This document shows positions 6,346-25,531 of a stretch of 39,705 nucleotides of DNA, one piece after another. Origin of the DNA: a virus; the IMG/VR virus record IMGVR_UViG_3300036546_000318; one strand, written 5' to 3'. Within the stretch, counting starts at the first letter, position 1. Every line of letters begins with the position of its first letter. Made by a program: the position numbers and the translations under genes. Under the pieces are notes generated by a model. It worked only from the letters and a program-made list of their open reading frames with translations, was not told the DNA's origin and did not search any database.

Positions 6346-8808
6346 ATGGCAGAGCGGAAACTCGGCATAACCATGGAACTCGGGGCCTCCCTGGGGTCGA
6401 CATTCAAGTCGACCTTCGGGGGGGCCGAGTCCCGGATCAAGGAACTCGGCTCGTCCATACGCGGCCTGAGAGAAGAGCCCACCAACAAGCTGATGCACAG
6501 CTTTTACAAATTGCGCGACAAGGTGCGCTCGTCAAGGGCGGAGCTTGGCCTCGCCGAAAGAAATCTAGCCAACTTAAAAGCACAGGCCGACGCTGCCGGC
6601 GGCGCCAGCGGGATGCTCGCACACCGCATACAGCGCGCCGAGGGGCGCGTTAAGAGCCTGCGCTCTTCTGTAAAAAACTCCACTCAGCAGTTTGTAGACC
6701 ATAAGCTGAAGATCGACGAGACAGGAAGAGGTCTTGGCGACCTGGCCTCCGACTATCGCCGACTGACGCAGGAGATGTCTCGGGCAAGAAAGACGCAGGA
6801 GGCCCTGAGTGAATTACAAGGGCGCCATCAGTCCGTCCTTGAGAAAAGGGACAACTTGCGCGGGCAGATGTTTGACATGGTTGCCCTCGGAGCAACCGCA
6901 GCCGCACCAGTTATGCATGCGATGAACATGGAGCAGGCGCAGGTCAGGCTAAAAACTGTACTGAACGCCGACGACAAGGATCGCGCCCTGGCCGAAGCGA
7001 AGACGGAAGCGCGAGGCCTCGCCAAGAGTGGTCTGGTGGGCCTCGGTGAAGCCTACGATATTCAGTACGCCCTCAACTCCGCAGGGTTGGATGCCGCAGC
7101 CGCTCGCAGCGCAAGCCAGGTGGTAGCCAGGGTAGCGAAGGTGACAAGTGGCGTCCCTGAGAAGGTGGGGGAGGTCGTGGCAACCACTTACAACAACCTG
7201 GGAAAAAGTTTGGAGGGCACGACGAGCGAAAGGCTTGGGAGGATTGGCGACCTCTTGACCAAAACCCAGCTTAAATTTCAGATCCGGGACTTTGGCCAAC
7301 TGGGCGAGTCGATGACAGAGGGGGCAGCCGGACTTGCATCGTATAATGTGGAGCTCGCTCAAGGTGTAACCCTACTTGGGCAGTTAAACACTGCCGGGAT
7401 GGGCGGCAGTAGGGCCGGGACAGCTTTGAACGCAGTGCTTAGATCTCTAGGGAAGGCCCAGAAGGAGTACGGCATAGATCTGGTACGCAACGAAAAGGGC
7501 CAGCTGGACATGATTGCGACCCTGGAGCAACTCCGAGACGCTACAGCCGACATGGATACTGACAGCAGAGCCCAATCTCTACAGAAAGTTTTTGGCGATG
7601 AAGGCGCGAAAGGCGTGGTGCCTCTGCTCAAGCAGTTGGATGAACTCAAGAGCGCGTACGGCGACGTCAAAGAGGGATCCAAAGGGATCGTTGACAGTGA
7701 GGTCAGGCTGTTCACAGAGAGCTCCGCCGGACAGATGGCAAAGCTTACGGGTACCATGTCTGTGCTTGGCTCCGTTGTTGGCGCAACGGTCCTTCCTGGC
7801 GTCAATGCGCTGTTCGGAGCGGTTGCCGGTATCCTCGGGCCAGTTGCCGAGTTCGCGGCCCAAAATGAAACACTGACCGCAGTCGTCACTGGGACGGCTG
7901 TTGGGCTTTTGGGCTTGAAGGTTGCGGCTATCGGGCTCGGTTACGGGTGGACCTTTGTCCAGGGCGGCGCACTCATGGTTCGCAAGGCTCTTCTATTAGT
8001 GGGGACTCAGGCCGGGTGGACTACCGTAAAAACCAAATTGCTCGGGGCAACCCAAAAGGCCTGGGCTATGGGGCAGACGTTTGTCGCCACCGCATCTTCA
8101 ATTGCCACTACAGCGATCCACGCCATCGGATCCACCTCGTCTTGGGCCGCCGTAAAAATGGCCGCACTGGGAGTTGCGCAAAAAGCGTGGGCTGTGGGAC
8201 AGGCAGTTGTAACGGGGGCCTGCGCCGCTATCGGGACAGCATTCAGGGTCATGGGTATGGCTGTCACGGCCAACCCAATTGGTCTGGTTGTTGGCCTCCT
8301 CGCCATCGGTGCTACTTTACTTATCTCAAACTGGGGCAAGGTAAAATCATTCTTTGTGGACGTGTGGACGTCAGTCGTGAAAGCGTTCAATTGGGCCTGG
8401 GAGAAGATCAAAGCCATCCCCCTCATAGGAACCCTCGTTGAAGGGGCTTCCGCGGTGGGGAGTCTGATTGGATCCGTCGCAAGCGCCGTTGGCGGCATAT
8501 TTGGCGATGACGAGGAGGCCCCCACTTCATCGCCGCCCACTGCGGCCGGTCCGAGCTACGCCACCCCAGCCCAACCCCAGAGCGCATCCGCAACCAGAGA
8601 GGGGCGCCTTTCCCAGATGGATCGCGCCGTCAAGTCCATCCCGCCGAGACAGAACATCACGTTCAATCAGACCGTAAACGTGAACGGCGGAGCATCTGCC
8701 GGAGACGTCAAGTCGGCGGTCTCCAAGGCGAACGAAGGACTGGAAGCAAGGGTCCGGAAGGTTGTTGCAGAGATGTTCCAGGAACGGGAGCGGACAGCCT
8801 ATGCCTAG
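6346..8808 (+). CDS. Tail tape measure protein
   Basis: 820 aa with a coiled N-terminal half and Gly/Ala-rich hydrophobic repeats in the C-terminal half. It directly follows the chaperone pair. Confidence 0.85.
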   Translation: MAERKLGITMELGASLGSTFKSTFGGAESRIKELGSSIRGLREEPTNKLMHSFYKLRDKVRSSRAELGLAERNLANLKAQADAAGGASGMLAHRIQRAEGRVKSLRSSVKNSTQQFVDHKLKIDETGRGLGDLASDYRRLTQEMSRARKTQEALSELQGRHQSVLEKRDNLRGQMFDMVALGATAAAPVMHAMNMEQAQVRLKTVLNADDKDRALAEAKTEARGLAKSGLVGLGEAYDIQYALNSAGLDAAAARSASQVVARVAKVTSGVPEKVGEVVATTYNNLGKSLEGTTSERLGRIGDLLTKTQLKFQIRDFGQLGESMTEGAAGLASYNVELAQGVTLLGQLNTAGMGGSRAGTALNAVLRSLGKAQKEYGIDLVRNEKGQLDMIATLEQLRDATADMDTDSRAQSLQKVFGDEGAKGVVPLLKQLDELKSAYGDVKEGSKGIVDSEVRLFTESSAGQMAKLTGTMSVLGSVVGATVLPGVNALFGAVAGILGPVAEFAAQNETLTAVVTGTAVGLLGLKVAAIGLGYGWTFVQGGALMVRKALLLVGTQAGWTTVKTKLLGATQKAWAMGQTFVATASSIATTAIHAIGSTSSWAAVKMAALGVAQKAWAVGQAVVTGACAAIGTAFRVMGMAVTANPIGLVVGLLAIGATLLISNWGKVKSFFVDVWTSVVKAFNWAWEKIKAIPLIGTLVEGASAVGSLIGSVASAVGGIFGDDEEAPTSSPPTAAGPSYATPAQPQSASATREGRLSQMDRAVKSIPPRQNITFNQTVNVNGGASAGDVKSAVSKANEGLEARVRKVVAEMFQERERTAYA

Positions 8809-9016: not shown

Positions 9017-10037
9017 GGCTGCAAAGATCCAGATCGCATACCAGGGCGCCGACATCAGCAAAGACATTGCGCCGTTTGTTCGAGGTTTTTCCTACACCGA
9101 CAACGCACACGGCCAAGCTGACGACCTGCGTATTGACATGGACGATCGCGACCACCTCTGGAAGGGAGACTGGCTTCCCCAAAAGGGCGACACCATTGTC
9201 GCCTCTATCGTGTGCCTTGAAGAGTGGAACGGACCAGGGTCCCCCTCTGTGTCCATCCCTTGCGGCACATTTGAAGTCGACGAAGTAGAGCTTGCCGTTG
9301 GGGACCAGGGCGACACGGTTGCCCTGAAGGCGGTGAGCTCGCTGACGCAAAACTCCATCCGAAAAGAGAGCAAAAGCCGCGGATGGGAAAATGTCAGCCT
9401 TCGCCAGGTATTTAGCGACATAGCCTCCCCCGCAGGGTTCCAGCTCTCCTGGCAGGCCGATGACGTTCAGCTCCTCCGCCTTGACCAGCACGCGGAGACG
9501 GACCTGGCTTTCATGAAGCGAGTTGTCGACGAGTACGGCCTGAACCTCAAGATCAACGACGCGACGGTCATTGTTTTTGCTGGCGAAAAGTACGACGCCC
9601 ACCCGGTTTCACTCTCCGTTACCCGGGGCCAGTCCGACTTGCGAAGCGCGTCCCTGAAAACCAAGACGATCGAGATCTACAAGGCCTGCGAGGTCTCATT
9701 TCACGACCCCAAAGACAAAGAGCTCAAGACGTTCACGTATTCGCCTCCGGATCCTCCGGCCGGATCCGGGCGCATCCTGCGGGTCAATCAGATAGCCGAC
9801 GACATCGCCATGGCGGAACGGAAGGCCAAGGCTGCTCTGCGAAAAAAGAACCAGCGCGAAGTCGAGGGTGATCTGACGCTCATGGGGGAGCCGAGGCTGT
9901 TGGCCGGAATGAACATAGCCCTCGGAGGCTTTCGGCTTTTTGACGGCACATATGCGGTCGAGCAGGCGAAGCATAGTTTCACGCGCACTGGAGGATACTC
10001 CACATCGGTGAAGATAAGGAAGGTTTTGAAATGGTGA
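9006..10037 (+). CDS. Late control gene D-like tail/baseplate hub protein
   Basis: 343 aa, with the N-terminal pattern ...YQGADISKDIAPFVRGFSYTDNAHGQADDL.I typical of P2 gpD family proteins. Confidence 0.8.
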   Translation: MKSRAAKIQIAYQGADISKDIAPFVRGFSYTDNAHGQADDLRIDMDDRDHLWKGDWLPQKGDTIVASIVCLEEWNGPGSPSVSIPCGTFEVDEVELAVGDQGDTVALKAVSSLTQNSIRKESKSRGWENVSLRQVFSDIASPAGFQLSWQADDVQLLRLDQHAETDLAFMKRVVDEYGLNLKINDATVIVFAGEKYDAHPVSLSVTRGQSDLRSASLKTKTIEIYKACEVSFHDPKDKELKTFTYSPPDPPAGSGRILRVNQIADDIAMAERKAKAALRKKNQREVEGDLTLMGEPRLLAGMNIALGGFRLFDGTYAVEQAKHSFTRTGGYSTSVKIRKVLKW

Positions 10038-10816: not shown

Positions 10817-11196
10817 TGCAGGTCGGCAGCTTTGGCCCTCTCGTTTTTCGTTCGAGTGCATCTGATGTGTTTACCCCTGTCGACCTGCGCCGCCGCCGAG
10901 TGGCTCAGTTCGCCGAACATCCGGTCGTCGACGGCCTTGCAAGGCTTCAACACCTGGGCACGTCGCTGGCTGAGGTGAGCTTCAAGGTTCAACTGGACCA
11001 CACGTTCACCGATGTCGAGGCGAAACTGATCGAGATCGACGCACTGCTTGAGTCCGGCGAGCATCACGCCCTTGTTATTGCTGGTCGCCGCTTGGGTCGC
11101 TTCGTGCTGACGGAATCGAACGAGGTGGCCAAGAAAATGTCGGCGTCCAAGGTTCTTTGGGCCGAAGTCGAGCTCAAGCTCAAGGAGTACAACTGA
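10813..11196 (+). CDS. P2 gpU-like tail protein
   Basis: 127 aa. The pattern FGPLVF...AEHPVVDG..RLQHLG...ALLESGEHHALVIAGRRLGRFVL...VELKLKEY matches the GpU family layout. Confidence 0.65.
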   Translation: MMQVGSFGPLVFRSSASDVFTPVDLRRRRVAQFAEHPVVDGLARLQHLGTSLAEVSFKVQLDHTFTDVEAKLIEIDALLESGEHHALVIAGRRLGRFVLTESNEVAKKMSASKVLWAEVELKLKEYN

Positions 11197-11525
11197 TGGA
11201 GTTTATCCTGGACACAACGCTTCCAGCGGAAGTCGTTATTGGCGCGACCGGGGTGACCGAGATCCTGCAGAATGTCCGCACGATCGTCTCGACAATCAAG
11301 GGCTCTGTCCCGCTGGACAGAGACTTCGGGGTCTCGGCGTCGTTTCTTGACAGCCCGACGCCCGAAGCGATGGCCGCGTTCACCGGGGAAGCCATAGACG
11401 AAATAGAGAAGCAGGAGCCCAGGTGCTCCGTTGTGTCCGTCGACTTCAAGCCTTTGGCCGAAGCCGCGATGGACGGACGCCTGTTCCCGGTAATCCGAAT
11501 CGCTATCGAGGGTAGATATGAGTAG
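11196..11525 (+). CDS. Baseplate assembly protein W (gp25-like)
   Basis: ATG at 11196 overlaps the upstream TGA. The 109-aa protein carries VTEILQNVRTIVSTIKGSVPLDRDFG, typical of the GPW/gp25 family. Confidence 0.8.
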   Translation: MEFILDTTLPAEVVIGATGVTEILQNVRTIVSTIKGSVPLDRDFGVSASFLDSPTPEAMAAFTGEAIDEIEKQEPRCSVVSVDFKPLAEAAMDGRLFPVIRIAIEGRYE

Positions 11526-14087: not shown

Positions 14088-14659
14088 TGCTCTCGAGTTT
14101 TGTGAAGTACAAAGAGCGCTACGCTTCGTTTGCGCTCAACAGGAAAATGGCTGGCGTGTTGACCCCGGGTGTGTACCAAGGGTTCGAGATCCTGCCGGCG
14201 GAGGGGCTGAACGTGCTTATCTCCGCATCTCACGACGACTACCCGGCCTCCGTGGCCGTAATCGAGCGCGAGGGATATTCCGTCACCCTGCGGATGGATG
14301 CCAGCGAAACCCTCCCCGTCGCAGGCCCCGGAACCTGGCATCCGGTTCTGGAGTCCTACTACACGCCGGGACAGGAAACATACCAACAGCTGAAGATCGT
14401 AGCCACACCTGAGCCGCACCATGTGGTTCTCGGGACCATCACGGTCCCTGACGGCGCCGCTGCAGTGACGGAAGACATGATCACCGACGAAGGCCGGATG
14501 ATCGGCTCTCAGGATCTGCTTGTGATGCAGTTCACCTCAGCCCTGATTGCCAATGAAACCGAACTGCTCGGATACAAACAGCGGCTGTCCAACATCGAAA
14601 ACTGGGCGCGGACCGCAGGATACGACCCCGCCAACCTTTATACCGGAGAAGGAGAATAA
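14087..14659 (+). CDS. Fibre-associated hypothetical protein
   Basis: ATG at 14087 overlaps the upstream TAA. The 190-aa protein sits between the collar domain and the receptor-binding fibre gene. Confidence 0.6.
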   Translation: MLSSFVKYKERYASFALNRKMAGVLTPGVYQGFEILPAEGLNVLISASHDDYPASVAVIEREGYSVTLRMDASETLPVAGPGTWHPVLESYYTPGQETYQQLKIVATPEPHHVVLGTITVPDGAAAVTEDMITDEGRMIGSQDLLVMQFTSALIANETELLGYKQRLSNIENWARTAGYDPANLYTGEGE

Positions 14660-14660
14660 G

Positions 14661-17165
14661 ATGGCATCCATGAATGAACGAGTGCAAGAGCTCATCAACT
14701 CTGTACAGACCTTTAACAACCAGGCGTCGCTGCTGTTGGCGGCCGTGGGACAGGGGCAGCTGGATCCCGAGAAGATCCAGGAGCAGATCCAGACAGCCAC
14801 CCAGTCGGCGATCGACGCCGTACTGGCCCAGCTCGACGGATATGACGCAACCACCATTCTGCAGCGACAGGATATGTTGAAGCTGGCGCAGGACATCCGC
14901 AACGTGACCGACGACGAGAAGTTTTTCTTCGAGTTCTTCCGCCGCCCGTTCTCGTTTGCCGACCAGATCGAAGTCGGCAGCGTTGTCACTGTGGCGGGCG
15001 ACGAATCCGTGGACTGCGCAGACACCTCCCTGCTGGAGGTCGGGCAGGAATACGTTATCTGCTCGGGAGACCTCCGCGAGACCGTGACTGTCGAGGCCGT
15101 ATTGACCTCCACCCGGTTCCGCGCCACGTCCGAGGTGTCCGCATCATACTCCGGAGCCACGCTGAAAAGGACATCCGCCCAACTCGACGGACAGTCTACC
15201 CGCTTTGCTCCCGGAGACATCTACTACGGCGGCAAGTTTGCGCTTGGCCTGGCCGATGTGGACAAGGCTATCCTCATTCGCCGCGGGGCTGTCGGAGAGC
15301 TGTCGGTCTACTTCCAGGACGCAACCCACGAATCTTGGACGCTGGCTCCCTGGGAATGGGTGCGGACCAATGAGGACGGTACACAGGATGTCGAATACCG
15401 ACTTCCAGCTCGCGGTGATTTTGATATCAAGATCGTGAACGAGTCCGACGTTGAAGTCGTGACTCAGTATATCGTTGGCGTGCACCAGGACACCGGCCTG
15501 CTGGGCGACCACCATCCGCCCGTCAAGCCCACCAACGTCTCTCCGGCCGCCGGGGCCATCGACCTGCAGGAAACCCCGACGCTGACCGGCTCTGTTTACA
15601 GTCACCCGCTCGGAACGTCGCAAGGCGCTCTGCAGGTTCGCGTCTACAGCGACGCGGACAGCTATGCGGAAGCGATCTACGACTCTGGCGAGCAGCCCGC
15701 CGGGTCCAGCTTCAAGCTCCCCGCGGGAATCCTTTCCGTAGGCGGCACGTTCAAGTGGGAGATTCGCTACAAAGACAGTCAGGGCGCATGGTCCCCCTGG
15801 TCGGATATGACCGCGTTCGATACTGCGGCTTCGTTTGTCTACATCGAGACGCCGACCCTCACCAACCCTGGCAACGGCGCAACGGACATTCCTGAGCAGC
15901 CGACCCTGACCAGCTCCCCGTTCACTGTGTCCGGCGGCTCTGACAACCACGTCGGATCCAGGTGGATGATCCGTGAAGCCGGAGGCTCCTACGACACCCC
16001 CGTTTACGACTCCGGCAGCTCGCTCGACTTGGAGTCTCACGTGGTTCCCGCCGGCAACCTGCAGGACGGTGAAGTCACATACTACGCCAAGGTCCAGCAC
16101 GAAGGTGAAACGCTTGGCGCTTCAGAGTGGTCCTCGGAGATCAGCTTTACCACCAAGGACCTGTTTGCGGTGATCGTCGGCATTGCCCAGGTGGCTTCCG
16201 GCGGCGGCGCAGGAACGTGGCAGCGCGTCGACGAAGACGGAAACAACAAGACTACCGACACCGCATACTTCAACAACCATCCGACCTACGCAGGGATTCA
16301 GGACGCCACCATCGACGGGCAGGCCATGGTCCAGATTCCCAAGTTCTACTACAAGGTCGCGCAGGCCCCCGCCGGCAGCGACCAAGCTGGCAAGAAGTGC
16401 TGGTGGATCTCCGATCAGCCCGCCGCAGGCTTTGAGCTGCACCCCGCATTCATGGACGGCGGAGTAGAGATCGACCGCTTTTACGTGGGTAAATACGAAG
16501 GCACCGATGACGCGGGAACCAAGGTCGGCTCCGCTGCCGGCGTTTCCCCTCTTGTGTCTGTCGACTTCACGACCATGCACTCCCGTTGCGCCGCCAGGAA
16601 TACCGACGGAGTTGAGGGGTTCCACATGTGGAACATCCACGAACTCAGCGCCATTCAGATGTTGGCGCTGATCGAGCTCGGCACGCCCGATGCCCAGTCG
16701 GCCATTTCCGCCGGCAACACGAACAGCTCTTCAGCGGTTAACACCGGCGCGTCCGGAGCAGTTTGGCGCGGGATCCACGAGCTGTGGGGGAACGTATGGG
16801 GCGCGGTTGACGGCTTTAAGACCGACACCAGCAACCGCTTGGAAGTCTTCGACCGCCTTGGCAACGAAACCTACATCAACACCGGGACGGTCATCACGAC
16901 CAGCGGGTGGACCACGTCCATGCTCGAAGCCTCTGGCGCAGATTGGGACTTTGCCAGCATGTTCGCTGCGGCCAATGTGGACAGCACTGAAGGCAACGGC
17001 ACTTTTGCCGATTACTGGCAGTCGAACTCCGCCGGCAGTGAATATGTCTGCTACCACGGCGGCAGCTGGGGCAGCGGCTCGCCCGCGGGCTTGTTCTCCT
17101 TGCTCTTGCACGCCGTCGCTTCGACCTCGTACGCGGACCGCGGCTGCCGCCTCGCCAAACGGTAA
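14661..17165 (+). CDS. Tail fibre / receptor-binding protein, DGR target 1 (C-terminal FGE-sulfatase/C-type-lectin-like domain ending in VR1)
   Basis: ATG at 14661 after RBS ggagaaggaga. It contains two ~100-aa tandem domains, and the C-terminus ...CYHGGSWGSGSPAGLFSLLLHAVASTSYADRGCRLAKR is encoded by VR1. Confidence 0.85.
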   Translation: MASMNERVQELINSVQTFNNQASLLLAAVGQGQLDPEKIQEQIQTATQSAIDAVLAQLDGYDATTILQRQDMLKLAQDIRNVTDDEKFFFEFFRRPFSFADQIEVGSVVTVAGDESVDCADTSLLEVGQEYVICSGDLRETVTVEAVLTSTRFRATSEVSASYSGATLKRTSAQLDGQSTRFAPGDIYYGGKFALGLADVDKAILIRRGAVGELSVYFQDATHESWTLAPWEWVRTNEDGTQDVEYRLPARGDFDIKIVNESDVEVVTQYIVGVHQDTGLLGDHHPPVKPTNVSPAAGAIDLQETPTLTGSVYSHPLGTSQGALQVRVYSDADSYAEAIYDSGEQPAGSSFKLPAGILSVGGTFKWEIRYKDSQGAWSPWSDMTAFDTAASFVYIETPTLTNPGNGATDIPEQPTLTSSPFTVSGGSDNHVGSRWMIREAGGSYDTPVYDSGSSLDLESHVVPAGNLQDGEVTYYAKVQHEGETLGASEWSSEISFTTKDLFAVIVGIAQVASGGGAGTWQRVDEDGNNKTTDTAYFNNHPTYAGIQDATIDGQAMVQIPKFYYKVAQAPAGSDQAGKKCWWISDQPAAGFELHPAFMDGGVEIDRFYVGKYEGTDDAGTKVGSAAGVSPLVSVDFTTMHSRCAARNTDGVEGFHMWNIHELSAIQMLALIELGTPDAQSAISAGNTNSSSAVNTGASGAVWRGIHELWGNVWGAVDGFKTDTSNRLEVFDRLGNETYINTGTVITTSGWTTSMLEASGADWDFASMFAAANVDSTEGNGTFADYWQSNSAGSEYVCYHGGSWGSGSPAGLFSLLLHAVASTSYADRGCRLAKR
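16206..16549 (+). repeat. Dispersed direct repeat, copy A (about 96.5% identical to 23138-23481)
   Basis: Manual alignment at a constant offset of 6932 nt gives 12 mismatches in 344 nt and no gaps. Confidence 0.9.
17058..17155 (+). repeat. DGR variable repeat VR1
   Basis: Gap-free alignment to TR 17889-17986 shows 18 differences. Seventeen are at TR adenines; one is a T-to-G difference at 17140. Confidence 0.9.
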
Positions 17166-17193
17166 ACTGAAACCTGCAACCTGAAACACTGAA

Positions 17194-17215
17194 GGTCCCC
17201 GCGAGAGCGGGGGCC
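17194..17215 (+). promoter_or_regulatory. Hairpin downstream of VR1 (9-bp stem with one G.T pair, GAGA tetraloop)
   Basis: ggtccccgc-gaga-gcgggggcc. The loop starts 38 nt after the stop codon, and an equivalent structure follows VR2. Confidence 0.7.
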
Positions 17216-17231
17216 ATAAAGGAGATACACT

Positions 17232-17531
17232 ATGAGTCTCGGACAGACTATTTCGTGGGGCCCTGTGGAAGATCTGAATCTGGACGCATTCAACTACAGC
17301 GTGCCCGAGGCGGACCATCGCCAACGCGTCAGGGTTTATTCCGTCCCCACTGACGTCGACGCCGGCGGCTACTTCGTCGCCGTGTCTGCGCCCTGGGACC
17401 CAGTCGTGGTCCCCCCCAGCAGGGTGAAGGACACCGCGCTGCTGGTTGAGTACGACCTTGACCCCGACGGAACCTTCCAGGTCAAGACCATGCTGCCGCA
17501 GATCAAGCGGGCAATGCAGGTGCCCTATTGA
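17232..17531 (+). CDS. Hypothetical protein between VR1 and avd
   Basis: 99 aa with RBS aaaggag. Its stop overlaps the avd start. No motif was recognised. Confidence 0.55.
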   Translation: MSLGQTISWGPVEDLNLDAFNYSVPEADHRQRVRVYSVPTDVDAGGYFVAVSAPWDPVVVPPSRVKDTALLVEYDLDPDGTFQVKTMLPQIKRAMQVPY

Positions 17532-17872
17532 GCCTGATGGACGGACTGAAGATCCTGGCCAAGATGGAGGAGCTTGACGCATACGCCCACAAGGCCATGC
17601 TTCAGTTTCCGAAATATGAACGCCATGTGCTGTGCGCGGCCATTCGCGAGACTTCCGCGGGGATTATCCGTTTGGTCGTGCGCTGCGCAAAGCGCTACCA
17701 CAAAAAGACCTCGCTTCAGGATTTGGACATTGAAGTCGAATACCTGAGAACTCTTGTGAGGAAGGCTCATGCGCTGGGCTACATCAACGTCCATCGCTAT
17801 GAAGTGTGGTCTCGCCATATTGACGAAGTGGGGCGCATGGTCGGGGGCTGGATCAAGCATGTAAAATCTTAG
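17528..17872 (+). CDS. avd: DGR accessory variability determinant (Avd, four-helix-bundle protein)
   Basis: About 111-114 aa, starting at TTG 17528 or ATG 17537. It is basic and helical, and the pattern AMLQFPKYERHVLCAAIRETSAGIIRLVVRCAKR...LGYI is typical of the Avd / 23S rRNA-IVS four-helix-bundle family. It lies immediately upstream of TR. Confidence 0.8.
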   Translation: MSLMDGLKILAKMEELDAYAHKAMLQFPKYERHVLCAAIRETSAGIIRLVVRCAKRYHKKTSLQDLDIEVEYLRTLVRKAHALGYINVHRYEVWSRHIDEVGRMVGGWIKHVKS

Positions 17873-17888
17873 GGCAGGCACCTGTTAC

Positions 17889-17986
17889 GGCGGCAACTGG
17901 AGCAACGGCTCGAACGCGGGCTTGTTCAACTTGAACTTGAACAACGTCGCTTCGAACTCGAACACGAACATCGGCTGCCGCCTCGC
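17889..17986 (+). repeat. DGR template repeat (TR)
   Basis: 98 nt containing 10 AAC codons (23 adenines) in the reading frame of the VRs. The invariant 3' end ggctgccgcctcgc is shared with both VRs. Weaker homology (ctgttac) extends to ~17882, with a 3-nt gap relative to the VRs. Confidence 0.9.
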
Positions 17987-18085
17987 AACCGGGCTCAAGC
18001 CAGAAGGGTGCGCTTTACGGAGCACACTCCAGCGCTTTTCGTTTGGGGCGCCTGTCCTCCCTACCCAACAGGGAAAGATACATAA

Positions 18086-18141
18086 GCCGAGGCGGCGAGT
18101 AAGCCCCGGAAAGGGGCCCAAAGTGGCCTCGGCCTTTTTTT
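18086..18141 (+). terminator. Intrinsic-terminator-like element in the TR-RT spacer
   Basis: An outer 8-bp stem, gccgaggc/gcctcggc (18086-18093 / 18126-18133), encloses an inner hairpin gcccc-ggaaa-ggggc and is followed by T7 (18135-18141). It ends 19 nt before the RT start. Confidence 0.55.
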
Positions 18142-18159
18142 GACCAGAGGAGAATACTG

Positions 18160-19230
18160 GTGCCGAAAACACATGGCGACCTTTGGAAACAGATCATCTC
18201 ATTCGACACGCTCTGCGGAGCCTTTAACCAGGCCCGCCTCGGAAAACGCTACACGCCTGAAGCACTACGGTTCGCCAGCCGACTTGAAGAAAATCTGATC
18301 AATATCCAGAACCACCTGATTTGGAAGACATGGTCTCCGGGTAAATGGAGGGAGTTCTGGGTTTACGACCCGAAGTGGAGACAGATTCAGGCGCCGCCCT
18401 TCTACGATCGCGTTGTCCACCATGCGCTTGTGAGCGTTGTTGAGCCTCTTTTTGAGCGCAAGTTTATTCACGACTCGTATGCCTGTCGGCGCGGTAAGGG
18501 CACTCACGCCGCCGTGTACCGCCTTCAGTCTTTCTTGCGACGCACGCGGCGGCACTGGCCGCGGGTTTACGTCGTCAAGGCCGACATCTCGAAATACTTT
18601 CCATCCATAAATCACTCCAGACTGGAGCAACAGCTCGGCAGAACCCTGCGCGACCAGGACGCCTTATGGCTGTGTAGCAAAATCATACGCGAAAACGGAT
18701 ATGAAAGGCGGGGCATTCCTGTGGGCGCCCTTACTTCGCAGCTTTTTGCCAACATTTACCTGAACGAGCTGGACCACTTCGTGAAGGATGAACTTGGAGT
18801 AAAGCACTATGTCCGGTACATGGATGACTTTGTTTTTCTTGGCCCGGACAAGGCCCGCTTGCGGCGGCTACTTTCCGTCATCGAGGAAAAGCTCGTCATG
18901 GATTTGCGGCTTGCCTTGAACCCAAAGACCTGCATTTTCCCCGCATCAAGAGGTGTGGACTTTGCCGGGTATCGCACTTGGGCCACCCACATAAAGCCTC
19001 GAAAAAAGAACGTCACAAGAATGCGCAAGCGGCTCACGCGCATGGCTGATCTTTACGCCCAGGGCCGCGCATCCCTTGAGGATGTCCGCGCAAGGGTGAT
19101 GTCGTTTATTGGATACATGAAACACTGCTCTGGCCACGTGACGACCCAAAGAGTTCTTCAGGAGATCGTTTTGACCAGGGAGAACAAGGCGCAGGAACAA
19201 GAGCCTGCGCCAAGGAGGTGGAAGTTATGA
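18160..19230 (+). CDS. DGR reverse transcriptase
   Basis: GTG start after RBS gaggag. Motifs: ADISKYFPSINH, IPVGALTSQLFANIYL (DGR-type SQ motif) and YVRYMDDFVFLG (YxDD). It is adjacent to avd and TR. Confidence 0.9.
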   Translation: MPKTHGDLWKQIISFDTLCGAFNQARLGKRYTPEALRFASRLEENLINIQNHLIWKTWSPGKWREFWVYDPKWRQIQAPPFYDRVVHHALVSVVEPLFERKFIHDSYACRRGKGTHAAVYRLQSFLRRTRRHWPRVYVVKADISKYFPSINHSRLEQQLGRTLRDQDALWLCSKIIRENGYERRGIPVGALTSQLFANIYLNELDHFVKDELGVKHYVRYMDDFVFLGPDKARLRRLLSVIEEKLVMDLRLALNPKTCIFPASRGVDFAGYRTWATHIKPRKKNVTRMRKRLTRMADLYAQGRASLEDVRARVMSFIGYMKHCSGHVTTQRVLQEIVLTRENKAQEQEPAPRRWKL

Positions 19231-20033
19231 ACAGTCCTCTTGCATGGCTTGGCGGGAAGTCTCGTCTAGCCAAGAAAATCGTCCCGATGTTGCCTCCTCA
19301 TGAACACTATGGAGAGCCGTTTGCCGGGGCCGGGTGGATATTCTTCCGCAAGGCCCCGTCTCGAGTCGAGTCTTTGAATGACATCAACTCGGATCTGGTG
19401 TCCTTTTATAGGGTGCTCCAGAACCACCTGGAAGAGTTTTGCCGGCAATTCCGTTGGCTGCTCTCTTCAAGGGAAATCTTTGAAGACTTCAACCGCCAGA
19501 GAGATGCCGGCGGGCTGACGGACATCCAAAGAGCTGCTCGGTTCTACTATGTTCAGCGGCAGGCTTTTGGGGGAAAGGTTTATGGCCAGTCGTTCGGGGT
19601 GGACCGGTCCAGTCCCCCGCGGATCAATCTCCTGCGCATCGAGGAGGAGCTGTCCGCAGTTCATCTCAGGCTTACCGGCGTCACTCTGGAAAACCTACCC
19701 TGGCACCGGTATCTCGAAAAATATGACGGGAAAGAGACGCTCTTCTACCTCGATCCTCCATACTATGGCTGTGAGTCCGATTACGGGAAAGATATATTCA
19801 CCAGGGGCGACTTTGACAGGCTTGCGGAGCGCCTTGCGAAGATCCAGGGCAAGTTCCTCCTCAGCCTGAACGACACCCCGGAGGTGAGAGATATCTTCGG
19901 AGGCTTTTTCGTTGAAGGAACCACTACCAGATACACGGTTAACGGAGCCAATCCGCGCACAGTTGGCGAGGTTCTAGTGATGAACTACAAGCCTTCTGCC
20001 GGACTACTGGATCTGATTGAGAACAAGAGCTAA
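19227..20033 (+). CDS. dam: DNA N6-adenine methyltransferase (Dam/D12 class)
   Basis: ATG at 19227 follows RBS aaggagg and overlaps the RT stop (ATGA). Motifs: PLAWLGGKS, EPFAGAG and FYLDPPYY. Confidence 0.85.
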   Translation: MNSPLAWLGGKSRLAKKIVPMLPPHEHYGEPFAGAGWIFFRKAPSRVESLNDINSDLVSFYRVLQNHLEEFCRQFRWLLSSREIFEDFNRQRDAGGLTDIQRAARFYYVQRQAFGGKVYGQSFGVDRSSPPRINLLRIEEELSAVHLRLTGVTLENLPWHRYLEKYDGKETLFYLDPPYYGCESDYGKDIFTRGDFDRLAERLAKIQGKFLLSLNDTPEVRDIFGGFFVEGTTTRYTVNGANPRTVGEVLVMNYKPSAGLLDLIENKS

Positions 20034-22852: not shown

Positions 22853-24064
22853 GTGAATACCAATGTTTCCGAAGCAATCAAGCTGGCCCTTGCTGAATTG
22901 GAGAAAGCCGAAGAAAAGCACCCCAACTGGCCATCCGATCCGATTCACGCGGCGGCAATAGTGGCCGAAGAGGCTGGAGAGCTGATCCAAGCGTCACTGG
23001 ACACCACCTATTCCGGCGGAAGCCAAGACAGGATGCGCGCCGAGGCATCTCAGGTGGCTGCTATGGGGCTTCGATTCCTTGCAAACCTCTCTACCCCAGG
23101 CCTTCGCGAACCTCACGTTGTCGGAGTTTCGTTCGACGGCGCAGGAACGTGGCAGCGCGTCGACGAAGACGGAAACAACAAGACCACCGAAACCGCATAC
23201 TTCAACAACCATCCGACCTACGCAGAGATTCAGGACACCACCATTGACGAGCAGGACATGGTCCAGATCCCCAAGTTCTACTACAAGGTCGAGCAGGCCC
23301 CCGCCGGCAGCGACCAGGCTGGCAAGAAGTGCTGGTGGATCTCCGATCAGCCCGCCGCAGGCTTTGAGCTGCATCCCGCATTCATGGACGGCGGAGTAGA
23401 GATCGACCGCTTTTACGTGGGCAAATACGAAGGCACCGATGACGCGGGAACCAAGGTCGGCTCCGCTGCCGGCGTTTCCCCCTTGGGCGGGCTTGATTTT
23501 TGCGAGACGAAAGAGCGCTGCGAAGCAAGAGGCGCAGGATGGGGGATGTGGGACATCTGGCAGCTTGGTGCCATCCAGATGCTGGCACTGATCGAGCTTG
23601 GCACGCCCGACGTCCAGTCTGTCGTCTCGAGAGGAAACGTGAACGGGTCGGGGCTACGGAAGACAGGGAGCACTGGAGCAGTCTGGCGCGGGATCCACGA
23701 GCTGTGGGGCAACTCTCTTCACATGGTGGACGGACTCGTTGCCAACCCTGAGAACCGGCTCTTTGTTCGTTCCTCTGAAAACCAGAAAGCATGGTTGGAT
23801 GTAGGCGCCGAAGCATGCGCAAGATCGGGATGGATAAGCGCATTCGAAAGCAAGGTTCCCGCCGCATTTGTCCCGAGCGAAACAGGGAGCGATGATGAAG
23901 TCGTGGGCGACTATTACTGGCCTGCATACAAGGGCGAGGAAAATATCTGCTACCACGGCGGCCACTGGAGCTACGGCTCGTACGCGGGCTTGTTCTACTT
24001 GGACTTGCACTACGTCGCTTCGTACTCGAACACGAACCTCGGCTGCCGCCTCGCCAAACGGTAA
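22853..24064 (+). CDS. DGR target 2: MazG-like (EExxE) N-terminal domain fused to an FGE/C-type-lectin-like domain ending in VR2
   Basis: GTG start 7 nt after aggag. Residues 1-95 (HPNWPSDPIHAAAIVAEEAGELIQA...EASQVAAMGLRFL) look like small phage MazG-type pyrophosphohydrolases. From codon 96 the gene is homologous to the fibre C-terminus, and its 3' end is VR2. Confidence 0.8.
   Translation: MNTNVSEAIKLALAELEKAEEKHPNWPSDPIHAAAIVAEEAGELIQASLDTTYSGGSQDRMRAEASQVAAMGLRFLANLSTPGLREPHVVGVSFDGAGTWQRVDEDGNNKTTETAYFNNHPTYAEIQDTTIDEQDMVQIPKFYYKVEQAPAGSDQAGKKCWWISDQPAAGFELHPAFMDGGVEIDRFYVGKYEGTDDAGTKVGSAAGVSPLGGLDFCETKERCEARGAGWGMWDIWQLGAIQMLALIELGTPDVQSVVSRGNVNGSGLRKTGSTGAVWRGIHELWGNSLHMVDGLVANPENRLFVRSSENQKAWLDVGAEACARSGWISAFESKVPAAFVPSETGSDDEVVGDYYWPAYKGEENICYHGGHWSYGSYAGLFYLDLHYVASYSNTNLGCRLAKR
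23138..23481 (+). repeat. Dispersed direct repeat, copy B (about 96.5% identical to 16206-16549)
   Basis: See copy A. Homology continues more weakly through to VR2. Confidence 0.9.
23957..24054 (+). repeat. DGR variable repeat VR2
   Basis: Gap-free alignment to TR shows 9 differences, all at TR adenines and all at the first base of a codon. Eight of them fall in AAC codons and the ninth is ATC to CTC. Confidence 0.9.
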
Positions 24065-24093: not shown

Positions 24094-24111
24094 GGATCGC
24101 GAAAGCGAGCC
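24094..24111 (+). promoter_or_regulatory. Hairpin downstream of VR2 (7-position stem with one mismatch, GAAA tetraloop)
   Basis: ggatcgc-gaaa-gcgagcc. The loop starts 37 nt after the stop codon. Confidence 0.65.
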
Positions 24112-24129: not shown

Positions 24130-24411
24130 ATGAAACATGAAGCCGCCTCTTCGACAGTCGAGATAGTCAAGAACACCATCAAGGAGCTGTTTTCCGATGC
24201 TGCCGACCTGGCTCGTCTCGGGCACAAGGAGCTGCTCACGGGACGCGAGGTTGAACTGATCTACAGCTACCCGTCGTCAACCCAAGAAAAGGATCGGTGC
24301 GCAGGCATCGGGCCCTCGTACATCAAGAGGGGGAAGCGAGTCCTGTATCGTCGTCGGGATCTGGATCAGTATTTCGGCGCTTTGAGAGTGAAAACCAGAG
24401 ACCAGGTGTAA
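24130..24411 (+). CDS. xis: Excisionase-type HTH DNA-binding protein (AlpA/Xis family-like)
   Basis: Strong RBS aggagg. The pattern LLTGREVELIY......GIGPSYIKRGKRVLYRRRDLDQYF matches the excisionase HTH pattern, and the gene is adjacent to int. Confidence 0.65.
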   Translation: MKHEAASSTVEIVKNTIKELFSDAADLARLGHKELLTGREVELIYSYPSSTQEKDRCAGIGPSYIKRGKRVLYRRRDLDQYFGALRVKTRDQV

Positions 24412-25531
24412 TGTCATGACGGAAAGCCGCATCAATACAATCAACGGCCTGCCTCTGGACGTCGGGGCACAGGTGGCTATACCTCTCCGTCACTTCCTCG
24501 TTGGTGTGCCCCATCAGCTTGGCTATCCAATAGAGCGGGACGCCAGAGATGGCCAGCCAGCTCCCGAACGTATGACGAAGGGAGTGGAACACAACCCTGT
24601 GGCGGGAATCATCCACCCCTTTGTTGAACTCCAGCGCGTCCACGGCGCGTCGGAACATGGCGGACGGCTCCGTACGCACGCCGCCGGTGCGCGAAGGAAA
24701 GACGACCTGCCCCGGCGGCGTCGGCTTGCCCATAAACACGCGGCGCAGCTCTCCGGAGATAAAGACAGTCCGGTCCCTTCCAGACTTCGTATCCTGAACC
24801 CGGATCGTCCCCGCGGACAGGTTCACCTGTTCGCCCTTCAGGCTGGCGATCTCTCCAAAGCGCATGCCGGTGTAAAGAGCGGCCACACAGACGCACCAGA
24901 AAGACTTCTGCGGGTCTCTGCAGCGCCTGTAAACCTCTTCAAGCAAGGCCCTTGCTTCATCCGGAGACAGCCATCTTGCGCGGCGGTTGTCGTAGCGTGG
25001 CCACTGGATCCTATCCGTCGGCGCCTTTCCTCTGTAGACACCCCACGCCTCAACCTTGCGGTAGATTCTTCTGATCAGAGAGAGGGCGTGCTCAATGGTT
25101 TTCGGGCTTTTGCCCTGCTCCTGCAGGTCAGCCTTGAACGCTTCCAAATCCAGGGGGGATATATCGCTCAGCATTTTTCCGCCGAGGGCATCCTTGAGAA
25201 GCGAGTTCCATCTGGACAACGTCTTCTGCGGGCTCTTGGTGTTCGCCAGGCAGTGGTTGTCGTAATAAAGAGCCCACGCCTCCTTCAGCGTCAAGCTGTC
25301 CTCTCCGCGCACCTGAGGCTGCTCGCCAAGCCGAACCTGGTTGAGCAGCTCTGTGCGCTTCTGCGCGGCGTAAGCCGCATCGACACCATCGGAGCGCCAT
25401 CCAATTTTGTGCCGCTCTTTCTTGCCTTTGTTCTTTATTGTGACGTAGTAGCAGACGTCTGGACGGCCTTGAAACCGTCGGGTGGTAGACGCGTAAAAAT
25501 AGACCCCTGTGAACTTCTTGACCCGCTCCAA
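24323..25531 (-). CDS. int: Tyrosine integrase
   Basis: 402 aa with an apparent TTG start. Catalytic signature: TGMRFGEIASL, HSLRHTFGSW, GH and ERYSHL. It is adjacent to the tRNA-derived attP. Confidence 0.9.
   Translation of the reverse strand: MERVKKFTGVYFYASTTRRFQGRPDVCYYVTIKNKGKKERHKIGWRSDGVDAAYAAQKRTELLNQVRLGEQPQVRGEDSLTLKEAWALYYDNHCLANTKSPQKTLSRWNSLLKDALGGKMLSDISPLDLEAFKADLQEQGKSPKTIEHALSLIRRIYRKVEAWGVYRGKAPTDRIQWPRYDNRRARWLSPDEARALLEEVYRRCRDPQKSFWCVCVAALYTGMRFGEIASLKGEQVNLSAGTIRVQDTKSGRDRTVFISGELRRVFMGKPTPPGQVVFPSRTGGVRTEPSAMFRRAVDALEFNKGVDDSRHRVVFHSLRHTFGSWLAISGVPLYWIAKLMGHTNEEVTERYSHLCPDVQRQAVDCIDAAFRHDITPGLWFSLSKRRNTDPDPDDDTGLASPS

What the first reader, a model, noticed from the sequence alone, without database searches (positions are those of the whole stretch)
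17058..19230. Complete DGR cassette at the end of the tail-fibre module
Seen in the sequence:
- The 98-nt TR (17889-17986) aligns without gaps to the last 98 coding nt before the final three codons of the fibre gene (VR1, 17058-17155).
- TR carries 23 adenines, 20 of them in 10 AAC codons in the VR reading frame.
- 17 of the 18 TR/VR1 differences fall on those adenines.
- The GC-rich 3' end ggctgccgcctcgc is invariant, and the two sequences diverge right after it (VR caaacggtaa, TR aaccgggctc). This fits an IMH/IMH* pair.
- At the 5' edge the VRs read tgc tac cac ggc ggc where TR reads tgt tac ggc ggc, a 3-nt indel that marks the homology boundary.

Established knowledge: adenine-specific TR-to-VR mutagenic retrohoming needs an RT with the SQ-containing motif plus an Avd four-helix protein. 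Both are present here (IPVGALTSQLFANIYL and YMDD in the RT, and the Avd gene), in the order VR-orf-avd-TR-RT.
Basis: partly seen in the sequence, partly recalled or inferred. Interest (0 to 1): 0.75.

Follow-up and report, generated by a model that had tools for sequence, protein, structure and literature searches.

The report
Active phage DGR with two targets
This is a complete, evidently active diversity-generating retroelement of the classic Bordetella-phage type in a temperate Desulfovibrio phage; it rewrites the tip of the tail fibre and of a second, non-structural protein, so it is a well-documented new example of a known system, not a new kind.

Summary
TR (17887-17986) matches VR1 (17056-17155) without gaps; 17 of 18 differences lie on TR adenines (hypergeometric p = 4e-13).

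The interpretation as a diversity-generating retroelement (DGR) is supported:
- The RT is closest to Bordetella phage bRT: 192 bits against 81 for group II RTs, 39% identity, with the SQ and YMDD motifs.
- Avd passes NCBI's DGR-Avd equivalog cut-off.
- 76 of 81 fetched loci carrying an RT relative have a repeat pair between the region upstream of the RT and elsewhere in the locus; nearly all are adenine-biased.
- The target domain models as a C-type-lectin fold (TaqVP E = 8e-15, Mtd E = 3e-4).
- GRNA-loop hairpins follow both VRs.
- The TR flanks form covariation-supported DGR-RNA helices.

Four 96-98% identical relatives, including a prophage in Desulfovibrio sp. 7SRBS1, give with the window 8 distinct VRs. 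Of 104 substitutions against TR, 102 lie at TR adenines. TR itself is essentially invariant.

It is ORF 22853-24064 (VR2 23955-24054), 6 kb downstream in the early, integrase-proximal region. It is a small helical early-gene domain fused to a copy of the fibre's lectin domain, and it is also being diversified.

Verdict: new member of a known kind, of modest interest.

The parts
14658..17165 (+). Target gene 1: tail-fibre protein (835 aa from ATG 14658). It has an Ig-like region and a C-terminal lectin-type domain of about 320 aa that carries VR1.
   Evidence: phrog_5302 tail protein, E = 5.5e-35, and Pfam Ig_Rha78A_N. It lies after baseplate and fibre genes. Its C-terminal domain is 64% identical to target 2. 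In L086 the equivalent gene is called at 834 aa.
17056..17155 (+). VR1, the variable repeat. It covers the last ~32 codons before LAKR-stop, 13 of them adenine-templated.
   Evidence: Gapless match to TR with 18 differences, 17 at TR adenines. It differs in each of the relatives L082, L083, L085 and L086, at TR-A columns apart from one C-to-A in L085.
17142..17162 (+). IMH of VR1: the GC-rich 14-mer GGCTGCCGCCTCGC plus CAAACGG.
   Evidence: The 14-mer is identical in TR, VR1 and VR2. The sequence after it is identical in both VRs and different in TR.
17194..17215 (+). GC-rich hairpin/cruciform, GGTCCCCGC-GAGA-GCGGGGGCC, starting 38 nt after the 14-mer. It has no T-run.
   Evidence: It has the GRNA 4-nt loop described by Guo 2011 (PMC3240598). 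29 of 65 VRs scanned, including the window's two, have such a hairpin within 100 nt downstream; it starts 28-39 nt downstream in all but BPP-1. The controls are 9 of 2000 random windows and 1 of 63 TRs.
17232..17531 (+). orf99, a small conserved ORF of unknown function between the target and avd.
   Evidence: No Pfam, NCBIfam or PHROG hit. Homologues at 33-42% identity lie beside related DGRs in L008, L029, L033 and L034, and after the RT in L009. It belongs to a small family of 92-101-aa proteins.
17528..17872 (+). avd, the accessory variability determinant (114 aa).
   Evidence: NF033474 DivGenRetAVD scores 111 bits against a cut-off of 80. PF22296 bAvd, E = 2e-27. phrog_3206 'Avd protein of DGR'.
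17871..17879 (+). 5' strand (AGGGCAGGC) of a long-range RNA duplex that brackets TR. It pairs with 18050-18058 and resembles the 'cPRT Stop' duplex.
   Evidence: 9 contiguous pairs here. In most of the 30 relatives examined, 8-14 pairs form at the same place, with different sequences in different loci. Element as described in bioRxiv 10.1101/2023.10.23.563531.
17887..17986 (+). TR, the template repeat. It is non-coding, lies between avd and the RT, and has 23 adenines within 17889-17986.
   Evidence: It is identical in L083 and L085 and has one A-to-G change in L086. It is 78% identical in DNA to the annotated TR of BPP-1.
17987..18159 (+). Spacer (Sp) part of the DGR RNA. IMH* AACCGG at 17987-17992. 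Stem-loop 18007-18028 with a UACG loop, closed by 17999-18000/18034-18035. Duplex strand 18050-18058. Short stem-loop 18059-18073, then an A-rich stretch 18074-18080. Stem 18086-18093/18126-18133, then T7 at 18135-18141. RBS GAGGAG at 18147-18152.
   Evidence: RNAalifold on 30 loci: 18 of 20 pairs have compensatory changes. 89.6% of cells are paired against 37-47% with partners slid, and the covariation score is 0.60 against 0.11-0.14. Coordinates. Terminator-like site.
18160..19230 (+). DGR reverse transcriptase (356 aa, GTG start).
   Evidence: The best PDB match is 8ub7 at 192 bits, E = 2e-55; the best group II RT scores 81 bits. The chain printed for 8ub7 reads the same as the BPP-1 Brt translation, to which the RT is 39% identical. 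phrog_1423, E = 1.6e-132. It falls below the cut-offs of the group II and retron models.
19227..20033 (+). Dam-type N6-adenine DNA methyltransferase. Its start overlaps the RT stop (ATGA). It is adjacent to the DGR but probably not part of it.
   Evidence: PF02086, E = 7e-24. TIGR00571 scores 95 bits, below its cut-off. Among the fetched loci, only L054 and the near-identical relatives have it after the RT.
22853..24064 (+). Target gene 2 (403 aa): an N-terminal three-helix domain (residues 1-80) fused to a lectin-type domain that carries VR2. It lies in the early region between a dNMP-phosphatase gene and the xis-like and integrase genes.
   Evidence: AF2 model pLDDT 85.6, with TaqVP 5vf4 at E = 8e-15 and Mtd 1yu0 at E = 3e-4. 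Homologues of the N-terminal domain are free-standing 72-158-aa proteins; the two whose contigs were read lie in phage early regions.
23955..24054 (+). VR2, the second variable repeat.
   Evidence: 9 differences from TR, all at adenines. It differs from the orthologous VR2 of L084 at 7 positions, all at TR adenines. The VR2 of L086 also departs from TR only at TR adenines.
24041..24061 (+). IMH of VR2. The 21 nt here are identical to those of VR1, and homology continues for a further ~20 non-coding nt (26 of the first 28 nt after the 14-mer match).
24094..24111 (+). Hairpin after VR2, GGATCGC-GAAA-GCGAGCC, with one mismatch. It starts 39 nt after the 14-mer.
   Evidence: It occupies almost the same position as the VR1 hairpin (38 nt) but has a different stem sequence.

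Best explanation
This is a canonical, currently active diversity-generating retroelement (DGR) of the Bordetella-phage BPP-1 type. It sits in a temperate contractile-tailed phage of Desulfovibrio.

Proposed mechanism:
1. avd, TR, the spacer and the RT gene are transcribed.
2. The RNA around TR folds into a long-range duplex that brackets TR (17871-17879 with 18050-18058). It also forms a stem-loop just after TR and a large 3' stem-loop.
3. The RT-Avd complex copies TR into cDNA and inserts random bases opposite the 23 template adenines.
4. The cDNA replaces VR1 or VR2. It is directed by the shared IMH (GGCTGCCGCCTCGC-CAAACGG...) and the GRNA hairpin about 38 nt downstream.
5. TR is protected because its own 3' flank (IMH*, AACCGG...) differs.

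Thirteen codons are rewritten: 10 AAC plus AGC, ACG and ATC. None can become a stop codon. This gives up to about 4e13 protein variants on the ligand-binding face of a C-type-lectin domain in the tail fibre, and the same in a second, early-region protein.

Shown here: the anatomy, family membership of the RT, Avd and target fold, covariation in the RNA, and adenine-restricted variation of both VRs across natural relatives with an invariant TR.

Inferred by homology with BPP-1: self-primed reverse transcription, the role of Avd, the roles of the IMH and hairpin, and tropism switching as the benefit.
For: TR and VR geometry and adenine bias:
- VR1 has 17 of 18 differences at TR adenines (p = 3.7e-13). 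VR2 has 9 of 9 (p = 5e-7).

Population test:
- Five lineages were compared: the window, L082, L083/L084 (Desulfovibrio sp. 7SRBS1), L085 and L086. The relatives are about 96-98% identical to the window.
- They give 8 different VRs.
- 102 of 104 substitutions against TR lie at TR adenines.
- All 23 adenine columns vary, and only 2 of 75 other columns do (Fisher p = 2e-20).
- TR is identical in three of its four copies. The single A-to-G change, in L086, is mirrored by G in both L086 VRs.
- VR1 carries 18 differences in 98 nt between the window and L083, against 143 in the whole 8 kb.

Proteins:
- RT: bRT (8ub7) at 192 bits, E = 2e-55, against 81 bits for the best group II RT. It is 39% identical to Brt, with aligned SQ and YMDD motifs.
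- Avd: 111 bits against a cut-off of 80 for NF033474.
- Clade behaviour: 76 of 81 fetched loci with an RT relative (39-63% identity) have a repeat pair between the 700 nt upstream of the RT and elsewhere in the locus. 71 loci, counting the window, pass a 60% adenine-bias filter.
- Target fold: TaqVP E = 8e-15, Mtd E = 3e-4, and PvdO and EgtB, which belong to the FGE-sulfatase type of the C-type-lectin fold by my own knowledge.

DNA and RNA elements:
- GRNA hairpins follow both VRs, matching PMC3240598.
- Spacer helices have covariation support, and an upstream:downstream duplex brackets TR. Both match the elements described in 10.1101/2023.10.23.563531.
Against: - There is no experimental or read-level evidence from this exact genome.
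- Two of the 104 VR substitutions are not at adenines: T17971 to G in the window's VR1, and C17903 to A in L085.
- 5' homology between TR and the VRs is only 8 nt (ACGGCGGC) before a 3-nt indel, which is short for cDNA integration.
- In this genome the 3' spacer stem is followed by T7, which looks like a terminator. That could limit RT expression.
- The priming adenosine could not be located by analogy with BPP-1 Sp A56.
- One relative contig (L082) lacks the Avd C-terminus, TR and most of the RT, so the element can apparently be lost.
Confidence: 0.95

Rival explanations
1. This is a decayed or fossil DGR. The repeats and genes are relics, and the VR differences were fixed long ago with no current activity.
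For: One relative contig (L082) carries a deletion of about 1.27 kb that removes the Avd C-terminus, TR and RT residues 1-296. A terminator-like T7 run precedes the RT.
Against: All ORFs are intact, and the catalytic motifs are present. Genomes that differ by only about 2-4% overall have completely different VRs. Both targets vary, while the four TR copies found show only a single change. That requires turnover more recent than the divergence of these lineages.
Confidence: 0.03
2. The three copies are ordinary paralogous repeats of a lectin-domain tail. They diverged by point mutation and recombination, and the RT is an unrelated group II intron or retron enzyme.
For: The RT's best NCBIfam hit by name is the group II intron RT/maturase model. 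One PDB relative is labelled 'retron-type'. The two lectin domains clearly recombine: a 300-nt block is 96% identical, and L085 looks recombinant.
Against: The group II model scores 137.6 against a cut-off of 300, and the retron models score 58 or less against cut-offs of 235 or more. bRT scores 192 bits against 81 for the best group II RT. Rfam finds no group II intron or retron RNA at gathering threshold. TR is non-coding. Random divergence cannot place 102 of 104 changes on 23 of 98 columns.
Confidence: 0.01
3. The DGR is real, but only the tail fibre is a biologically meaningful target. VR2 belongs to a recent, non-functional duplicate of the fibre tip that is diversified as a bystander.
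For: The 5' 300 nt of the lectin domain are 96% identical between the two genes, which suggests recent duplication or gene conversion. The fusion architecture is rare: only two other full-length examples were found, P0001 and P0002.
Against: The ORF is intact with a good RBS. It is conserved with the same architecture in L084 and L086. Its central part has diverged to about 73% or less from the fibre copy. Its IMH and hairpin are maintained, the hairpin with a different stem sequence. Its VR2 differs between lineages at adenine sites only.
Confidence: 0.25

Closest known systems
Bordetella phage BPP-1 DGR (mtd-avd-TR-brt; AY029185)
   Same: - Same gene order: target with C-terminal VR, avd, non-coding TR, then RT.
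- RT 39% identical to Brt, with the SQ and YMDD motifs.
- TR 78% identical at the DNA level, with AAC codons in register.
- A GC-rich 14-mer IMH core, followed by divergence between VR and TR.
- A GC-rich hairpin with a GRNA loop after VR.
- Structured RNA flanking TR.
   Different: - An extra 99-aa ORF lies between the target and avd.
- There are two targets, 6 kb apart.
- TR is 100 nt here and 134 nt in BPP-1.
- The hairpin starts 38 nt after the 14-mer. In BPP-1 it starts 2 nt after the annotated VR end.
- By Foldseek the target domain is closer to TaqVP than to Mtd.
- The host is Desulfovibrio, and the phage has a tail sheath.
- The spacer sequence cannot be aligned with that of BPP-1.
Thermus aquaticus DGR variable protein TaqVP (PDB 5vf4)
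   Same: It is the best structural match of the modelled target domain (E = 8e-15, probability 1.0, TM about 0.5).
   Different: Only 16% sequence identity. By my own knowledge, not tested here, TaqVP is a cellular rather than a phage protein and has a C-type-lectin fold with the variable residues at its C-terminal end.
DGR-bearing prophages of Desulfovibrio piger (PMC12724379), and multi-target or non-adjacent-target phage DGRs in the survey of Wu et al. (PMC5758913)
   Same: - Same host genus.
- RT, Avd-like protein and an FGE-sulfatase/tail-fibre target.
- The survey reports about 15% of DGRs with more than one target.
- It also reports many phage DGRs with non-adjacent targets within 50 kb.
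   Different: No sequence comparison with the D. piger prophages could be made here. A second target built on a small early-gene helical domain is not among the examples I found.

Membership tests
Diversity-generating retroelement (DGR) | The reverse transcriptase belongs to the DGR clade, with an [I/L/V]GxxxSQ motif and YxDD, and is closer to bRT than to group II or retron RTs. | tested here: met
   bRT (8ub7) scores 192 bits against 81 for the best group II RT. The RT is 39% identical to Brt, with LTSQLFAN and YMDD aligned. phrog_1423, E = 1.6e-132.
Diversity-generating retroelement (DGR) | A TR/VR near-repeat pair whose differences fall on TR adenines. VR lies inside an ORF, and TR is non-coding and next to the RT. 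| tested here: met
   VR1 has 17 of 18 and VR2 has 9 of 9 differences at TR adenines. TR lies between the avd stop (17872) and the RT start (18160).
Diversity-generating retroelement (DGR) | An accessory protein Avd. | tested here: met
   NF033474, an equivalog model, scores 111.1 bits against a cut-off of 80. PF22296 scores 96 bits against a cut-off of 40.
Diversity-generating retroelement (DGR) | An IMH at the 3' end of VR and a differing IMH* at the 3' end of TR. | tested here: met
   The 14-mer is identical in all three copies. The following bases are identical in VR1 and VR2 and different in TR. Whether it functions as a homing signal cannot be tested here.
Diversity-generating retroelement (DGR) | A GC-rich hairpin/cruciform with a 4-nt GRNA loop downstream of VR (phage DGRs; Guo 2011). 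| tested here: met
   The loops are GAGA and GAAA, and the hairpins start 38 and 39 nt after the 14-mer. 29 of 65 VRs scanned have one, against 0.45% of random windows and 1 of 63 TRs.
Diversity-generating retroelement (DGR) | The variable protein has a C-type-lectin fold, with the VR on its C-terminal face. | tested here: met
   In the AF2 model the domain has pLDDT above 90. Foldseek finds TaqVP at E = 8e-15, Mtd at E = 3e-4, and PvdO and EgtB.
Diversity-generating retroelement (DGR) | [quoted passage not shown] | tested here: met
   Covariation score 0.60 against 0.11-0.14 in the slid controls, with 0 of 500 shuffles as high. The upstream:downstream duplex has 9 pairs here and 8-14 in most of the 30 relatives examined.
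Diversity-generating retroelement (DGR) | Ongoing adenine-specific diversification with an invariant TR. | tested here: met
   8 distinct VRs in 5 near-identical lineages, with 102 of 104 substitutions at TR adenines. TR is conserved.
Diversity-generating retroelement (DGR) | Biochemical adenine mutagenesis and retrohoming by RT-Avd. | not testable with these tools
   This needs in vitro cDNA synthesis or an in vivo homing assay.
Group II intron RT/maturase | The protein passes the family model, and an intron RNA with its characteristic domains surrounds the ORF. | tested here: not met
   TIGR04416 scores 137.6 bits against a cut-off of 300. Rfam finds no group II intron at gathering threshold in the window.
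Retron | A retron RT model match, with an adjacent msr/msd RNA. | tested here: not met
   The best retron model scores 58 bits against a cut-off of 235. There is no retron RNA family hit.
MazG-like all-alpha NTP pyrophosphohydrolase (N-terminal domain of target 2) | A helical-bundle fold with the EExxE...ExxD metal-binding motifs. | tested here: inconclusive
   EEAGE and a later invariant E are conserved, but no ExxD motif is present. The confident three-helix model (pLDDT 90.8) finds MazG, HisE and DCTPP1 structures only at E of 0.7 or worse. Pfam PRA-PH reaches E = 0.11 in 2 of 22 members. The PDB profile search finds nothing relevant.

The most novel reading that the evidence does not exclude
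The phage uses one TR and one RT to diversify two proteins: its receptor-binding fibre and a cytoplasmic, non-virion early protein.

Target 2 has no signal peptide on inspection. It lies in the early region next to the xis-like and integrase genes. Its N-terminal domain belongs to a family of small proteins; the two members whose contigs were read lie in phage early regions. This protein may be a MazG-like nucleotide hydrolase, or an oligomerisation module, coupled to a hypervariable binding domain.

That would make it a DGR-diversified intracellular effector of a temperate phage, for example one aimed at variable host-defence or rival-phage molecules, rather than a host-range device.
Probability: 0.3. 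Interest if true: 0.55.

Novelty: new member of a known kind. Interest (0 to 1): 0.3.

Why it matters
The element itself is a textbook DGR, so its main value is as an unusually well-supported natural example. It has two targets, five near-identical lineages, an invariant template, 8 different VRs and a cultured host (Desulfovibrio sp. 7SRBS1) in which it could be studied. It also shows that the RNA elements recently defined by cryo-EM for BPP-1 are recognisable, with covariation support, in a whole clade of related phage DGRs. The one point worth following up is the second target. If it is a non-structural, intracellular protein, it would extend phage DGR function beyond tropism switching.

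Tried and rejected
- Sequence searches of the fibre protein against PDB gave only noise (Hia/Hsf adhesins, E above 0.03). Avd against PDB gave only a marginal hit to Bbp7 (E = 0.99). Profile libraries and fold comparison were needed instead.
- Pfam and NCBIfam have no model that recognises either lectin-type target domain or orf99.
- I tried to align the spacer with BPP-1's Sp to locate the priming adenosine. The sequences are not alignable beyond TR, so no priming site is claimed. The invariant CCAG at 18029-18032 is only a candidate.
- I suspected a MazG-like identity for the target-2 N-terminal domain. The PDB profile search, Pfam and Foldseek all stayed below significance, so this remains a lead only.
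- I considered that the hairpins after the VRs are intrinsic terminators. I rejected this for VR1 and VR2 because no T-run follows either.
- I considered that the Dam methylase is a DGR component, because it is translationally coupled to the RT. Among the fetched loci, only L054 and the near-identical relatives have it after the RT, so it is treated as a neighbour.
- The + strand ORF 24416-26281 (621 aa, no hits) is probably spurious. The real gene there is the minus-strand integrase 24323-25531.
- The GenBank phage collection has no close relative of this region. Only short matches of 60-80% identity were found, to TRs, RTs and methylases.

Full report
**Observation.**
- TR 17889-17986 matches VR1 17058-17155 without gaps. 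BLAST extends the match to 17887/17056.
- TR has 23 adenines, and 20 of them sit in ten AAC codons in the VR frame.
- Of 18 differences, 17 lie at TR adenines. The exception is T17971 to G.
- The 14-mer GGCTGCCGCCTCGC is identical in both copies, and the sequences diverge straight after it (VR CAAACGGTAA, TR AACCGGGCTC).
- The 5' edge carries the described 3-nt indel.
- The probability of at least 17 of 18 mismatches falling on 23 of 98 positions is 3.7e-13.

A third copy of the 14-mer at 24041-24054 reveals VR2 (23955-24054) at the end of ORF 22853-24064. It has nine differences from TR, all at adenines (p = 5e-7).

**Genes.**
- Avd (17528-17872) passes NCBI's equivalog model for DGR Avd, 111 bits against a cut-off of 80. 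It also matches Pfam bAvd.
- The RT (18160-19230) is closest among solved structures to 8ub7, at 192 bits and E = 2e-55. The chain printed for 8ub7 reads the same as the BPP-1 Brt translation. Group II RTs reach 81 bits and the Eco8 retron RTs 24.
- The RT is 39% identical to annotated BPP-1 Brt, with LTSQLFAN and YMDD aligned.
- It fails the curated cut-offs of the group II and retron models. Rfam finds no intron or retron RNA in the window.
- The fibre gene most likely starts at ATG 14658. It matches a PHROG tail-protein family and follows baseplate and fibre genes.
- A 99-aa ORF (17232-17531) lies between VR1 and avd and has no family assignment. It recurs next to related DGRs.

**Target fold.**
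The two targets share a C-terminal domain of about 310 aa, 64% identical. It has no Pfam or PDB sequence match. An AlphaFold model of target 2 built on 40 homologues has pLDDT above 90 across this domain. Foldseek finds the Thermus DGR variable protein TaqVP (E = 8e-15), then PvdO, Mtd (E = 3e-4) and EgtB. By my own knowledge PvdO and EgtB carry the formylglycine-generating-enzyme (FGE-sulfatase) type of the C-type-lectin fold, so the hit list is that of a C-type-lectin-fold DGR variable protein. Some homologues carry Pfam PF18454, which I recall to be the Mtd N-terminal domain; I did not check this.

**The RT clade behaves as DGRs.**
IMG/VR yielded 80 loci with RT relatives at 43-63% identity. 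I added the BPP-1 locus and ran a simple scan. It compared the 700 nt upstream of each RT with the rest of the locus.
- 76 of the 81 loci have a repeat pair.
- Nearly all pairs are strongly adenine-biased. 71 loci, counting the window, pass a 60% adenine filter.
- 78 of the loci then held (the 81 above plus L082-L084) encode an Avd homologue.

I searched for the IMH plus its 3' flank, which lies outside the variable columns. I also looked up contigs encoding homologues of target 2. Together these gave four close relatives:
- L082, an IMG/VR contig, 98% identical.
- L083 and L084, from Desulfovibrio sp. 7SRBS1, 98% and 97% identical.
- L085, a JGI metagenome contig.
- L086, a JGI metagenome contig, 96% identical, with the same gene order including target 2.

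With the window these are five lineages, and they give eight VRs, all different. Of 104 substitutions relative to TR, 102 lie at TR adenines. All 23 adenine columns vary, and only 2 of the other 75 do (Fisher p = 2e-20).

TR is identical in the window, L083 and L085. L086 has one A-to-G change in TR, and both of its VRs carry G at that position, as expected if they were templated from their own TR.

Between the window and L083, VR1 holds 18 differences in 98 nt, against 143 in the whole 8 kb. Both targets are therefore being rewritten on a timescale shorter than the divergence of these lineages. The test could have refuted the interpretation and did not.

**Target-site signals.**
Each VR is followed by a short GC-rich hairpin with a 4-nt GRNA loop and no T-run:
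- after VR1: GGTCCCCGC-GAGA-GCGGGGGCC, 17194-17215, starting 38 nt after the 14-mer;
- after VR2: GGATCGC-GAAA-GCGAGCC, 24094-24111, starting 39 nt after the 14-mer.

The stems differ while position and loop type are kept. Across the loci, 29 of 65 VRs scanned (including the window's two) have such a hairpin, starting 28-39 nt downstream in all but BPP-1. The controls are 9 of 2000 random windows and 1 of 63 TRs. This matches the element shown to be required for BPP-1 homing and described for other phage DGRs: a 7-10 bp GC-rich stem and a GRNA loop (PMC3240598). The non-coding 3' flank is nearly identical between the two targets, 26 of the first 28 nt, even though the middle of the lectin domains has diverged.

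**DGR RNA.**
An alignment of TR ends and spacers from 30 loci gives a consensus structure in which 18 of 20 pairs show compensatory changes.
- 89.6% of cells are paired, against 37-47% when partners are slid by 1-3 columns.
- The covariation score is 0.60, against 0.11-0.14 in the slid controls and 0.23 in shuffles (0 of 500 as high).

In window coordinates the elements are:
- a stem-loop at 18007-18028 capped by UACG, just after TR, flanked by an invariant CCAG;
- a large stem at 18086-18093/18126-18133.

The 9 nt at 17871-17879, which end 7 nt before TR, pair with 18050-18058. Equivalent duplexes of 8-14 pairs, with different sequences, occur at the same place in most relatives. A short stem-loop (18059-18073) and an A-rich stretch follow.

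These correspond to elements described from the bRT-Avd-RNA cryo-EM work (bioRxiv 10.1101/2023.10.23.563531):
- the Avd-binding stem-loop;
- the 'cPRT Stop' duplex, followed by a stem-loop and adenosines;
- an RT-binding stem-loop.

If the analogy holds, the stop duplex explains why TR/VR homology begins at 17887. I could not locate the priming nucleotide.

**Second target and genome context.**
The window is a circularly permuted genome of a temperate contractile-tailed phage. In window coordinates the genes run:
- major head protein 205
- tail sheath 4103
- tape measure 6346
- baseplate and fibre genes
- the DGR
- Dam methylase
- repressor, then cro-like and cII genes
- a dNMP phosphatase
- target 2
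- a xis-like ORF
- integrase, 24323-25531 on the minus strand
- a tRNA-Met-like attP, 25658-25738
- primase
- terminase 30647
- portal 36512
- protease 38001

Homology with the Desulfovibrio chromosome stops at 25788, beside the tRNA.

Target 2 therefore lies in the early, integrase-proximal region and not in the tail module. Its first 80 residues form a confidently modelled three-helix domain. Homologues of that domain are free-standing 72-158-aa proteins. The two whose contigs I read lie in phage early regions, beside ParB and integrase genes or after a Mu-type Gam gene. A MazG-like identity is suggested by the EEAGE motif and by the kind of weak structural hits, but it does not reach significance.

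Multi-target phage DGRs and phage DGRs with non-adjacent targets are already known (PMC5758913). DGR-bearing Desulfovibrio prophages have also been reported (PMC12724379).

**Verdict.**
The element meets every sequence-testable criterion of a BPP-1-type DGR and shows natural evidence of activity on two targets. It is a new member of a known kind. The only aspect with some novelty is the non-structural second target, whose function is unknown.

Noticed in passing
L082 (IMGVR_UViG_3300035530_000138), junction corresponding to window 17780|19047: A 98%-identical relative lacks about 1.27 kb: the Avd C-terminus, TR, the spacer and RT residues 1-296. The junction sits at an imperfect 13-nt microhomology (CATGCGCTGGGCT and CACGCGCATGGCT). 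The contig ends 80 nt later. This is either a DGR-loss variant with a frozen VR1 or an assembly artefact.
   Followed up: partly
window 16202-16501 versus 23134-23433; L085 10001-11245: The first 300 nt of the two lectin domains are 96% identical, while the rest is about 73% or less. That suggests gene conversion between the two targets. In L085 the target-2 N-terminal domain is joined to a fibre-type lectin domain (92% identical to the window's fibre tip), followed by orf99, avd and TR, and cII and most of the phosphatase gene are missing. This is either a real recombinant or a chimeric assembly through the repeat.
   Followed up: partly
window 19227-20033: The start of a Dam-type N6-adenine DNA methyltransferase overlaps the RT stop codon (ATGA), so the two may be translationally coupled. 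Among the fetched loci, a similar gene follows the RT only in L054 and the near-identical relatives. No link to adenine mutagenesis is shown.
   Followed up: partly
window 18086-18141: In this genome the conserved 3' spacer stem is followed by a run of seven T, giving a terminator-like site just before the RT's ribosome-binding site. Most relatives have no T-run there. It might define the 3' end of the DGR RNA or attenuate RT expression.
   Followed up: partly
window 24323-25738: A tyrosine integrase lies on the minus strand (24323-25531), next to a tRNA-Met-like sequence (ARAGORN 25658-25738; Rfam 25679-25735, 35.8 bits). Homology with the Desulfovibrio sp. 7SRBS1 chromosome ends at 25788, so this is probably attP. 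The 621-aa + strand ORF 24416-26281 that overlaps it is probably spurious.
   Followed up: partly
L086 5035-5134 (TR), 4204-4303 and 11103-11202 (VRs): This relative's TR has one A-to-G change, equivalent to window 17901. Both of its VRs carry G at that column, consistent with templating from its own TR and the loss of one mutable site.
   Followed up: yes
L016 1527-1629 (TR), 53-155 and 8696-8594 (VRs): A more distant relative (RT 59% identical) also has two VRs. One is about 7 kb downstream on the opposite strand. Each has 13 of 13 differences at TR adenines.
   Followed up: no
L038, L042 and L048, about 7660-8110 versus 9380-9840: These related loci appear to carry a tandem duplication of the avd-TR region: two avd copies and a second, non-adenine-biased TR-like repeat.
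   Followed up: no
window 17232-17531: orf99 belongs to a small family of 92-101-aa proteins with no annotation. It lies after the target gene in several related DGR phages, but after the RT in L009. It could be a fibre-associated protein or an unrecognised DGR accessory gene.
   Followed up: partly
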